58,083 nt of DNA from Candidatus Omnitrophota bacterium (GCA_028699255.1 JAQVUX010000001.1:1-58083), one strand, 5' to 3'; numbered from the stretch's first letter, positions 16,303-17,482 are shown. Notes: generated by a model from the letters alone, not told the origin. Numbers and translations are program-made.

Positions 16303-17310
16303 ATGAAACTATCCGAGTTTGATTATAACTTACCGAAGGAATTGATCGCGCAGTATCCGGCCCAGAAGCGGGATGCGTGCAGGTTGATGGTGCTCGATCG
16401 CGCTTCGAAGACGATCGCGCATAAGACGTTCGAGGATATCCTCGGATATTTTAAACCCGGCGATCTGCTCGTCCTGAATAATACGAAAGTAATCCCCGCG
16501 CGGCTCTTTGGGAAGCGGAAGTCGGGCGGGAAGGTTGAGTTGTTTCTACTGGAAATGAAGAATCCGATTTGCGAGGCGCTCGTAAAACCGGGGGCGCGGG
16601 TTAAGGATGGAGAAATTATAATTCTCGATTCCGGGGATGAGGTCGAGGTTATGGGGCGCGGCGATATCGGAAGACAGGTAAGATTTAACAGGCCGATCGA
16701 AAGTATTGTGAAAGAAATAGGCCACATGCCATTGCCGCCATACATCGATAGGAACGACGAAGATTCGGACAAACAGAACTATCAGACTATTTACTGCCGG
16801 AAGGAAGGCGCGACCGCAAGCCCGACAGCGGGATTGCATTTTACGGATGAGTTGCTGGACAAAATCGCAGGACGCGGGGTACGGGTTCAATATGTGACGC
16901 TCCACACGAATTACGGGACGTTCGCGCCGGTAAAGACGGAAGATGTCGAGGGGCACAAAATGCATAAGGAACCCTTCGAGCTTTCCGCCGAGACCGCGGA
17001 GGCGATAGTCGAGACGAAGAAGCGCGACGGTAAGGTATACGCGGTCGGGACGACTACGACACGCGTTTTGGAACATTGCGCGCAGAAACTTCCGCGCAGT
17101 GCCGGCGGGCACACCGAAATGTTCATATATCCGGGTTATAAGTTCAAAGTCGTCGATCGCTTAATTACGAATTTCCATCTGCCGAAATCTACGCTTATGC
17201 TACTGGTGAGCGCATTCGCAGGTAAAGACTTTATTCTCGATGCATATCGCCAAGCCATAGCCGAGCGATACAGATTCTTTAGCTATGGCGACGGGATGTT
17301 GATAGTGTAA
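16303..17310 (+). CDS. queA: S-adenosylmethionine:tRNA ribosyltransferase-isomerase
   Basis: MKLSEFDY.LP.ELIAQ.P start, PLPPYI, and a GTT..R..E motif. Confidence 0.95.
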   Translation: MKLSEFDYNLPKELIAQYPAQKRDACRLMVLDRASKTIAHKTFEDILGYFKPGDLLVLNNTKVIPARLFGKRKSGGKVELFLLEMKNPICEALVKPGARVKDGEIIILDSGDEVEVMGRGDIGRQVRFNRPIESIVKEIGHMPLPPYIDRNDEDSDKQNYQTIYCRKEGATASPTAGLHFTDELLDKIAGRGVRVQYVTLHTNYGTFAPVKTEDVEGHKMHKEPFELSAETAEAIVETKKRDGKVYAVGTTTTRVLEHCAQKLPRSAGGHTEMFIYPGYKFKVVDRLITNFHLPKSTLMLLVSAFAGKDFILDAYRQAIAERYRFFSYGDGMLIV

Positions 17311-17482
17311 ATTTGTCGATACAGCAGGTGAATATGATGTATCGAGTGGTTTGTTCGGGGCGCGCAATTTTCGGCCATGCAAAAATTGCGCTCCGTAAAA
17401 GTTCTCGTACACTGCCTCGAACTTTTAAGGCCCTCACAAACCACATCGCTACATCATATTATGCTGAGAACGAAAAATTTAC
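17307..17482 (+). repeat. Structured palindromic intergenic element, diverged member (subfamily 2)
   Basis: Same architecture as 15801-15979. P4 lies at 17362-17391 and P5 at 17396-17427, with conserved loops and compensatory stem changes. The outer stem is gtaaatttgtcg / cgaaaaatttac. Confidence 0.75.

What the first reader, a model, noticed from the sequence alone, without database searches (positions are those of the whole stretch)
17307..17482. Diverged third member shows compensatory stem changes with conserved loops, which is evidence of selection on structure
Between queA and tgt lies an element with the same architecture but a different sequence.
- P4 is GCGCAATTTT-[CGGCCATGC]-AAAATTGCGC (17362-17391).
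- P5 is TAAAAGTTC-[TCGTACACTGCCTC]-GAACTTTTA (17396-17427).

Compared with the 6876 and 15801 copies:
- The P4 loop keeps GCCATG, and the P5 loop keeps TCG-N5-TGCCTC at an identical 14-nt length.
- The P5 stem differs at three base pairs, all changed on both strands (A-T to T-A, T-A to G-C, G-C to T-A).
- The P4 stem has one such double change (A-T to C-G).
- The long flanking stem switches from GGTTGGTAT/ATACCAACC to GTGGTTTGT/ACAAACCAC.

The element again starts at the upstream stop codon (the queA TAA at 17308-17310 lies inside the outer stem). It also fills the false N-terminal extension of the tgt ORF.
Basis: seen in the sequence. Interest (0 to 1): 0.7.

Follow-up and report, generated by a model that had tools for sequence, protein, structure and literature searches.

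The report
Structured mobile repeat between queA and tgt
The hairpin-rich element between queA and tgt is one copy of an abundant, apparently undescribed family of about 170-base mobile palindromic repeats found in Omnitrophota bacteria, which slip in at stop codons between tightly packed genes and keep their folded shape through paired mutations.

Summary
Window 17308-17481 has the stated P4 and P5 hairpins, the conserved loops, and double-sided stem changes relative to the copies at 6875-7054 and 15800-15980.

It is not a queuosine-specific regulator. It belongs to a multi-copy family that my scans found only in Candidatus Omnitrophota. A covariance model found 96 hits (84 distinct) in 638 kb.

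Family features:
- **Ends:** each copy has sharp 11-12 bp terminal inverted repeats, (T)AAAATTTTTCG...CGAAAAATTTT(A).
- **Length:** 163-251 nt.
- **Stop codon:** the end often supplies the TAA stop of the upstream gene (29 of 51 sense copies).
- **Orientation:** both orientations occur, biased about 3:1 to sense.
- **Polymorphism:** a syntenic genome has queA-TAA-T-ATG-tgt with no element.

Structure is actively maintained. 97% of cells are Watson-Crick paired, 21 of 29 pairs show double changes, and G-U pairs are almost absent. There are 62 haplotypes of 10 variable base pairs, and these reassort freely while each pair stays complementary.

Best reading: a MITE-like (or REPIN-like) selfish repeat that is co-transcribed in operons. 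Its fold is needed for its own propagation or for being tolerated. No autonomous partner was found, and whether the fold acts as RNA or DNA is unresolved. It is a new member of a known kind, of moderate interest.

The parts
17308..17481 (+). Element copy C, whole unit from 5' terminal inverted repeat to 3' terminal inverted repeat (174 nt), between queA and tgt
   Evidence: CM R1 core hit at 17350-17441, 96.4 bits.
17308..17318 (+). 5' terminal inverted repeat TAAATTTGTCG. Its first three bases are the queA stop codon TAA.
   Evidence: Family consensus (T)AAAATTTTTCG with information content near 2 bits, falling to about 0 outside.
17331..17354 (+). 5' arm of the long outer stem (AATATGATGTATCGAGTGGTTTGT)
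17357..17361 (+). 5' strand of the short helix closing the three-way junction (GGGGC). It pairs with 17429-17433.
   Evidence: Family helix 1.
17362..17391 (+). P4 hairpin. The apical loop GCCATG is at 17374-17379. The ATG at 17377 starts the false N-terminal extension of tgt.
17396..17427 (+). P5 hairpin with the 14-nt loop TCGTACACTGCCTC (17405-17418)
17436..17460 (+). 3' arm of the long outer stem (ACAAACCACATCGCTACATCATATT)
   Evidence: (repeat D7).
17471..17481 (+). 3' terminal inverted repeat CGAAAAATTTA
6875..7054 (+). Copy A of the same family, with the GC-rich outer-stem subtype. It lies after a 177-aa ORF.
15800..15980 (+). Copy B. Its first three bases are the TAA stop of the SpoIID-domain gene.
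16090..16275 (-). Diverged member on the opposite strand. It has the same order of hairpins and the CGCTC junction, but different loops, a large insertion in the P5 loop and degenerate ends. Boundaries are approximate.
   Evidence: CM hit 16120-16251, 26.3 bits, E about 1e-4. Sequence.
46590..46800 (+). Diverged member D. It shares the outer stem with C but has a different P4 loop and an insertion in the P5 loop. Boundaries are approximate.
   Evidence: D7; 46635-46764, 24 bits.
46234..46432 (+). Sister-type element with similar ends (GGAATTTTTCGC...GCGAAATTTTTGC), placed directly after the stop of the upstream gene
16303..17310 (+). queA (flanking gene, not part of the element)
   Evidence: Pfam Queuosine_synth, E = 3e-132.
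17503..18714 (+). tgt with its true start (flanking gene, not part of the element)
   Evidence: Pfam TGT, E = 2e-159. N-terminus matches the L162 orthologue.

Best explanation
The element is one copy of a family of non-coding, non-autonomous mobile repeats of Candidatus Omnitrophota. It resembles a MITE, with some REPIN-like traits.

**Shown:**
- The unit is about 170 nt and bounded by an 11-12 bp terminal inverted repeat, (T)AAAATTTTTCG...CGAAAAATTTT(A).
- Copies are dispersed next to unrelated genes.
- Orthologous sites can be filled or empty.
- Insertions sit in the tiny spacers of tightly packed, co-directional genes, very often exactly at the stop codon.
- The flanking T(A) plus the element's leading A's form the TAA stop of the upstream gene.
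- The whole unit folds into a rod closed by the terminal repeats. The rod holds a three-way junction carrying two hairpins, P4 and P5.
- Pairing is maintained almost purely by Watson-Crick pairs through many reassorting double changes.

**Inferred:**
- An enzyme supplied in trans, not yet identified, moves the element into TA or AT-rich targets.
- Only copies that keep the fold and the two loop sequences (RCCATG and TCGKACGCTGCCTC) propagate, because the mobilising protein reads the folded form. The loops would be its contact sites.
- In operons the element is co-transcribed. Its tight fold, together with the rebuilt stop codon, makes it tolerable to the host.
- It may also alter the stability or translation termination of the upstream cistron, as reported for ERIC, BOX, Correia and REP repeats.

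It does not regulate queuosine genes specifically.
For: **Copy number and host range**
- CM R1 finds 96 hits (84 distinct) in 638 kb of Omnitrophota DNA.
- It finds none in 737 kb of non-Omnitrophota DNA that matched the loose loop pattern, and the pattern finds none in viral contigs.
- All true pattern hits in GTDB genomes are Omnitrophota MAGs.

**Ends**
- The 10-mer AAATTTTTCG occurs 78 times forward and 84 times reverse, against 0.6 expected. Forward-to-reverse spacing is 162-251 nt.
- Only 7 terminal repeats are unpaired.
- Information content is near 2 bits inside the terminal repeat and about 0 just outside.
- The first unconserved position after the repeat still covaries.

**Mobility**
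- The queA-tgt site is empty in syntenic L162, reading TAA-T-ATG.
- The L040 copy is absent at window 55364-55435 and in L153.
- The L166 copy is absent at window 12172-12235.
- The same intergenic site is occupied by different subtypes in different genomes.
- Copies at unrelated loci are up to 96% identical.

**Context**
- Neighbouring genes are unrelated: a MORN-like ORF, SpoIID, queA and others.
- 29 of 51 sense copies overlap the upstream stop codon. Both orientations occur: 51 vs 17 by the upstream gene, 27 vs 7 where both flanks are co-directional.

**Structure**
-, as summarised in the interpretation check.

**Precedent**
- MITE features are listed in PMC2229807.
- BOX repeats encode the stop codon of 36 CDSs in the pneumococcus (PMC3049150).
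- Other repeat families of the same size and style co-occur in these genomes.
Against: - No autonomous element or transposase with matching ends was found in the 638 kb held.
- The target-site duplication is not demonstrated. TA flanks both ends in only 18 of 72 copies, and no longer duplication exists.
- No two copies at different loci are identical (best 96%, median 81%), so recent transposition is not shown.
- Ordinary DDE-type MITEs do not need internal hairpins or conserved loops.
- The branched core is conserved across species whose genes are only 70-80% identical. Together with the 3:1 sense bias, this could instead reflect a host-level function.
- Gene calls for the orientation counts were heuristic, and some copies are orthologous rather than independent.
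Confidence: 0.68

Rival explanations
1. The element is a host-serving, cis-acting RNA module in operon transcripts. It may have begun as a mobile repeat but is now kept by the cell as an intercistronic punctuation mark. Once transcribed, the rod with its two conserved loops would bind a host protein or nuclease. That would set the stability, processing or translation termination of the upstream cistron.
For: - There is a 3:1 bias to the sense orientation.
- 29 of 51 sense copies sit exactly at the stop codon.
- The core and loops are conserved across species whose coding DNA is 70-80% identical.
- Conserved mismatches and junction bases (AC / T, and the A.A or G.A at the base of P5) persist and are not erased.
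- Recalled from my own knowledge, not retrieved here: stop-proximal REP sequences affect translation termination in E. coli (Liang, Rudd and Deutscher 2015).
- ERIC and Correia RNA are cleaved by RNase E and RNase III (PMC2229807, PMC3049150).
Against: - About a quarter of copies are antisense to their neighbours, and some lie between convergent or divergent genes.
- There is no sense-strand signature: G.U 5 vs A.C 19, and the antisense fold is more stable in 69 of 72 copies.
- Orthologous operons work without the element.
- The neighbouring genes are unrelated.
- No terminator-like or promoter-like signal was found.
Confidence: 0.17
2. The element is a DNA-level repeat with a chromosomal role, or a REPIN-like partner of a single-copy HUH/Y1 (RAYT-type) enzyme. 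The fold would form on single-stranded or cruciform DNA. Loops and stems would be read as DNA, and the orientation bias would follow the direction of replication rather than transcription.
For: - Pairing is Watson-Crick only, with almost no G.T or G.U.
- The two strands fold as mirror images.
- The family has persisted with turnover across species.
- All genes in the window lie on one strand, so transcription bias and replication bias cannot be separated.
- A-tract/T-tract motifs recur in the terminal repeats and in both hairpin stems.
Against: - The unit is 170 nt with true terminal inverted repeats, not a 20-40 nt REP with a conserved 5' tetranucleotide.
- No Y1 or RAYT-like gene was seen, though only 638 kb was held.
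- There is no experimental or sequence handle for a DNA-binding partner.
Confidence: 0.1
3. The element is a free-standing small RNA gene, a self-cleaving ribozyme, or a queuosine-related riboswitch that happens to be duplicated.
For: - The fold is branched and very stable, with conserved loops and covariation.
- Copy C lies between two queuosine-pathway genes.
Against: - No Rfam family matches at gathering threshold or at E up to 10.
- There are tens of copies next to unrelated genes.
- The queA-tgt site is empty in a relative.
- No promoter or terminator signal was found.
- No loop-to-flank pseudoknot is seen beyond chance.
Confidence: 0.04

Closest known systems
Bacterial MITEs and small interspersed repeats co-transcribed in operons: ERIC/IRU (enterobacteria), Correia/NEMIS (Neisseria), RUP and BOX (Streptococcus pneumoniae)
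   Same: - Size of 100-250 nt, non-coding and multi-copy.
- Terminal inverted repeats, often with TA at the termini.
- A rod-like fold closed by pairing of the 5' and 3' ends.
- Intergenic position inside transcription units, in both orientations.
- Repeats that supply the stop codon of the upstream gene (BOX: 36 CDSs, PMC3049150).
- General features as listed in PMC2229807.
   Different: - No sequence similarity to these families was sought or found, and the host phylum is different.
- This family has a conserved three-way-junction core with two hairpins and sequence-conserved apical loops.
- Pairing is kept by many reassorting double changes.
- No cognate IS is known, whereas RUP is linked to IS630-Spn1.
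- The TA duplication is not proven here.
Caulobacter/Brucella CIR repeats
   Same: They are branched (two-armed) intergenic repeats whose predicted fold is conserved between genera. A short conserved motif is displayed in a terminal loop (GANTC in CIR, as described in PMC2229807).
   Different: - CIR elements only partly resemble MITEs.
- Their loop motif is a known methyltransferase site.
- Here the loops are RCCATG and TCGKACGCTGCCTC, with no assigned reader.
- CATG is not avoided in these genomes.
REP / BIME / REPIN elements with RAYT transposases
   Same: - Abundant extragenic palindromes, often just after stop codons.
- Long-lived within lineages.
- A structure read as a hairpin, with effects on upstream mRNA reported.
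   Different: - REP units are 20-40 nt, have a conserved 5' tetranucleotide, and lack terminal inverted repeats of this kind.
- A RAYT gene could not be looked for genome-wide here.

Membership tests
Bacterial MITE (features as listed in PMC2229807 and PMC3049150) | Small (about 100-400 bp) and without coding capacity of its own | tested here: met
   72 full-length units span 163-251 nt. The only ORF through copy C is the false extension of tgt.
Bacterial MITE | Terminal inverted repeats with sharply defined ends | tested here: met
   The ends are (T)AAAATTTTTCG / CGAAAAATTTT(A). Positions 1-10 pair in 57-72 of 72 copies. Information content falls to about 0 outside.
Bacterial MITE | Target-site duplication | tested here: inconclusive
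   TA lies 5' in 31 of 72 copies, 3' in 23 of 72, and at both ends in 18 of 72. TA is palindromic, so it cannot be told apart from an extension of the inverted repeat. No longer duplication exists: the longest shared flank word averages 4.17 against 3.99 in controls.
Bacterial MITE | Many dispersed copies, with filled and empty orthologous sites | tested here: met
   96 CM hits. Empty sites at queA-tgt in L162, at window 55364-55435 and in L153, and at window 12172-12235.
Bacterial MITE | Highly base-paired fold of the transcript or strand | tested here: met
   MFE z-scores of -7.4 to -7.9. 97.1% of cells are paired across 84 sequences.
Bacterial MITE | A cognate autonomous IS with matching terminal repeats in the same hosts | tested here: inconclusive
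   None was found in the 638 kb held. The one transposase seen (L174 361-1809) is an unrelated IS inserted into the P4 loop.
REP / REPIN with RAYT | A 20-40 nt imperfect palindrome unit, single or as an inverted doublet | tested here: not met
   The unit is about 170 nt with a branched core and 11-12 bp terminal repeats.
REP / REPIN with RAYT | A single-copy RAYT (Y1/HUH) gene flanked by the repeats | not testable with these tools
   Only 8-15 kb pieces around the matches are held.
Any curated RNA family (Rfam 15), including ribozymes and preQ1 riboswitches | A match to the family covariance model | tested here: not met
   No hit in the region at gathering score. Only chance-level hits at E = 3.6 or worse.
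Gene-specific cis-regulatory RNA of queA/tgt | Conserved association with the regulated gene across relatives | tested here: not met
   A syntenic relative has no element between queA and tgt. Other copies flank unrelated genes.
Intrinsic transcription terminator | A GC-rich hairpin followed by a run of T | tested here: not met
   0 terminator-like sites in 15700-17600, against 2.5 expected in shuffles. The T's of the 3' end lie inside the closing stem.

The most novel reading that the evidence does not exclude
The conserved three-way junction, with its RCCAUG and UCGKACGCUGCCUC loops, would be a dedicated protein-binding platform rather than a by-product of transposon ends. Two versions are open.
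- It is the recognition fold of a new structure-reading mobilisation enzyme. That would be a REPIN-RAYT-like long-term partnership in Omnitrophota, but with a branched substrate.
- It is a domesticated intercistronic RNA mark that the host uses to process or tune polycistronic mRNAs at stop codons.
Probability: 0.2. Interest if true: 0.7.

Novelty: new member of a known kind. Interest (0 to 1): 0.42.

Why it matters
- **Annotation.** Omnitrophota are known almost only from metagenome-assembled genomes. An abundant repeat that sits on stop codons creates false N-terminal extensions (as for tgt here) and rewritten C-termini (as in L166). It can also break assemblies.
- **Marker.** The family gives a phylum-specific marker and a clean natural data set: dozens of reassorting compensatory pairs, with almost no wobble pairs. 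This can help separate selection on a fold from palindrome correction.
- **Lead.** The two conserved loops point to an unidentified protein partner. If that partner is a structure-reading enzyme or a host RNA-processing factor, the family would become considerably more interesting.

Tried and rejected
- **Exact-protein look-ups of Tgt**, to find the source contig, returned nothing on record (one search was a frame error).
- **Rfam** at gathering and at permissive thresholds found nothing relevant.
- **Viral contigs:** no match.
- **Pseudoknot** between the P5 loop and the 5' variable region. Complementarity averaged 4.14 against 3.82 for shuffled loops, so this was rejected.
- **Long target-site duplication**, suggested by a few flanks such as L151 and L185. 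It is not above the between-copy control.
- **An SD-like extension as part of the element.** Flank information content is about 0, and the purine-rich motif sits at whichever end faces the downstream gene. It is therefore the gene's own ribosome-binding site.
- **Loop palindromes CATG and GTAC as restriction-modification targets.** CATG is not avoided (ratio 1.01-1.03) and GTAC only mildly (0.69-0.79).
- **Autonomous partner.** I searched for terminal-repeat pairs 0.3-3.5 kb apart and for solo repeats. Only an unrelated IS1182-like insertion and ordinary genes turned up.
- **Strand of the functional fold**, from MFE and from G.U vs A.C counts. The antisense is slightly favoured, but the sequences are not independent, so I treat this only as absence of a sense-RNA signal.
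- **Terminator or promoter content:** none above chance.
- **Literature on Omnitrophota repeats or MITEs:** nothing found.

Full report
**1. The observation.**
The sequence at 17308-17481 is as described.
- The 5' end TAAATTTGTCG contains the queA stop TAA at 17308-17310.
- A long outer stem has arms at 17331-17354 and 17436-17460.
- A short helix (17357-17361 with 17429-17433) closes a three-way junction.
- P4 is at 17362-17391, with loop GCCATG.
- P5 is at 17396-17427, with loop TCGTACACTGCCTC.
- The 3' end is CGAAAAATTTA at 17471-17481.

Relative to copies A (6875-7054) and B (15800-15980), P5 differs at three base pairs and P4 at one. All four changes are on both strands, and the outer stem differs. 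The two-loop pattern occurs three times in the window and never in shuffles. The folds have z-scores of -7.85 and -7.36. ORF 17377-18714 starts in the P4 loop; the true tgt start is 17503.

Minor corrections:
- Copy A starts 5 nt after its upstream stop.
- The window has further diverged members at about 16090-16275 (- strand), at 46590-46800, and a sister type at 46234-46432.

**2. It is a large family confined to Omnitrophota.**
- Only the 12 loci from Candidatus Omnitrophota MAGs had the hairpins. The rest were chance matches in high-GC coding DNA.
- A covariance model of the 92-nt core (29 base pairs) found no hit in 100 of those other loci (737 kb).
- A second pattern that did not specify the P4 loop found 68 metagenome loci.
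- Over all Omnitrophota DNA held (638 kb), the model found 96 hits, 84 of them distinct.
- Viral contigs had none. Rfam has no matching family.
- I found no paper describing such repeats in this phylum.

**3. Anatomy of the unit.**
- The 10-mer AAATTTTTCG occurs 78 times forward and 84 times reverse, where 0.6 is expected.
- Each forward copy is followed by a reverse copy at 162-182 nt, or at 192-251 nt for copies with extra hairpins. Only 7 terminal repeats are unpaired.
- Position-specific information is near 2 bits across the repeat and drops to about 0 immediately outside it. Only a weak (G)TA...TA(C) preference remains. The ends are therefore sharp.
- The first variable position after the repeat still covaries between the two ends.
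- Inside, two outer-stem subtypes exist. Some copies carry an extra hairpin in the 3' arm.
- The core is constant: junction bases AC / T / none, then P4, then CGCTC, then P5.

**4. It is or was mobile, and not tied to particular genes.**
Other Omnitrophota contigs are syntenic with the window at 70-80% identity. At orthologous sites:
- In L162 the queA-tgt junction reads TAA-T-ATG with no element, while the orthologue of copy B is present.
- In L141 an element lies between queA and tgt, but 50 nt after the stop, and a second, different repeat follows it.
- The L040 copy is missing at window 55364-55435 and in L153.
- The L166 copy is missing at window 12172-12235. In L166 the upstream ORF now ends inside the element.
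- The same site can hold different subtypes in different genomes.

Copies at unrelated loci reach 96% identity, with a median of 81%. None are identical. Neighbouring genes are unrelated housekeeping genes. Other repeat families of similar size share these genomes; for example 7262-7445 is found in 15 loci.

**5. Where it sits.**
These counts rest on a stop-free-stretch heuristic for the flanking genes.
- The upstream gene is on the element's strand in 51 copies and on the other strand in 17.
- Where both flanks are co-directional, the counts are 27 sense and 7 antisense.
- By my normal approximation these depart from 1:1 at roughly p = 1e-4 and p = 1e-3. Some copies are orthologous, so independence is overstated.
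- In 29 of 51 sense copies, the upstream stop codon is made of the flanking T(A) plus the element's first A's. Another 14 copies lie within 3-17 nt of the stop.
- Because the ends are symmetric, antisense copies do the same with the other end (3 of 7).
- The purine-rich motif seen next to the element lies at whichever end faces the downstream gene. It has no positional information, so it is that gene's ribosome-binding site and not part of the element.

The simplest reading is a TA or AT-rich target preference combined with very short intergenic spacers. The stop codon is then one of the few tolerated sites, and the leading A's rebuild TAA. BOX repeats encoding stop codons are a published precedent (PMC3049150).

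**6. Is the structure selected?**
Across 84 distinct cores:
- 97.1% of cells are standard pairs, against 83.7% in shuffles.
- 21 of 29 pairs have double-sided changes, covering 268 cells.
- Only about 4 cells have one-sided changes.
- Sliding the partners by 1-3 columns drops pairing to 30-56%.

Ten variable base pairs define 62 haplotypes. Almost every pair of base pairs shows all four combinations, while each base pair itself stays complementary. A few inherited subfamily events cannot produce this. It needs repeated double changes, or recombination with loss of mismatched products.

Orthologous copies L140 and L150 differ by a clean C-G to A-T swap in P4. The P4 loop was not required by the metagenome pattern, and it is RCCATG in 73 of 84 copies. 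The P5 loop was ascertained, so its conservation is less informative. In the diverged sister types both loops differ, but the order of helices is kept.

Conserved mismatches and junction bases argue that blind palindrome correction is not the only force acting.

**7. RNA or DNA?**
- Wobble pairs are almost absent.
- In a full-length alignment of 49 copies there are 1722 Watson-Crick pairs, 5 G.U and 19 A.C.
- The reverse-complement strand folds more stably in 69 of 72 copies, by a mean of 7.4 kcal/mol. The folds are mirror images and the sequences are related, so I read this only as no evidence for the sense RNA being the selected form.
- No terminator or promoter signal was found.
- No loop-to-flank pseudoknot was found.
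- The sense bias could reflect selection on transcripts or strand-specific insertion linked to replication. All genes in the window are on one strand, so the two cannot be separated here.

**8. What I could not find.**
- No autonomous partner. The only transposase near a copy (L174 361-1809, IS1182-like by its N-terminal sequence, which is my own judgement) has inserted into the P4 loop at CATG. It has unrelated ends.
- Solo terminal repeats are next to ordinary genes.
- No long target duplication.

**9. Verdict.**
The finding is real. The inference of structural constraint holds at family scale. The object is a structured, terminal-inverted-repeat-bounded interspersed repeat of Omnitrophota, closest in behaviour to ERIC, BOX, RUP and Correia-type MITEs and, for its branched fold with conserved loop motifs, to Caulobacter CIR repeats (PMC2229807).
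- MITE membership is met for size, terminal repeats, copy number, insertion polymorphism and fold.
- It is open for the target duplication and the cognate IS.
- I rate it a new member of a known kind, of moderate interest. The conserved branched core and its unknown reader are the part worth following.

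Noticed in passing
window 7262-7445: A second, unrelated palindromic repeat family of about 184 nt, with ends CTTTTTTCGAT...AAAGAAAAAAG. It is found at 84-89% identity in 15 of the Omnitrophota loci held.
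   Followed up: partly
window 7178-7233 and 16014-16069: A 56-nt direct repeat (84% identical) lies about 40-130 nt downstream of copies A and B. It was not found in any other locus held. Its function is unknown.
   Followed up: partly
L174 236-2032: An IS1182-like transposase gene (482 aa, 361-1809) with its own ends has inserted into the P4 loop of a family member. The insertion is flanked by CATG on both sides, so the loop was its target.
   Followed up: partly
L166 4090-4290 (- strand) versus window 12130-12260: In L166 the element sits where the window has two overlapping genes. The upstream ORF in L166 reads into the element and ends ...EKGINFSQQ* instead of ...EKKDDLAHIR*. The repeat has rewritten a protein C-terminus.
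   Followed up: partly
L141 5390-5150 (- strand), L027 4160-4395, L179 7040-7320 (- strand): A sister repeat type with similar ends (GAAAATTTTCG). Its P4-like hairpin has loop TTAGGCA, and its P5-like hairpin carries a large insertion. It often lies directly beside a canonical copy.
   Followed up: partly
L162 2507-2547, L087 2023-2074, L188 3525-3586: Miniature versions of 41-62 nt consist of little more than the two terminal repeats. One of them abuts the ATG of queA in L162.
   Followed up: no
window 46233-47748: A 1.5-kb stretch upstream of valS has no ORF of 100 aa or more on the + strand. It is filled with repeats and several further inverted repeats, such as 47537-47561 with 47703-47727. 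Rfam found no T-box or other leader there.
   Followed up: no
P4 loop and 3' arm of most copies (for example window 6947-6952, 15871-15876): In most copies the loop ATG is followed at once by TGA or TAA, giving a start-stop mini-ORF (GCCATGTGA or GCCATGTAA). In copy C it reads on in frame into tgt. This is probably a by-product of the closing base pairs.
   Followed up: no
L141 5640-5590 (- strand) and L004 2535-2565: A short shared sequence, CAATATCCCGAGGCCTATGGCCGA(A/G)GG, lies just 5' of two unrelated copies. It may be another small repeat or hairpin (GGCC-TAT-GGCC).
   Followed up: no
window 1-2296 and 38613-38690: A partial 23S rRNA and a 5S rRNA lie at the start of the window, and a tRNA-Pro(GGG) at 38.6 kb. 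Nearly all long ORFs are on the + strand.
   Followed up: no
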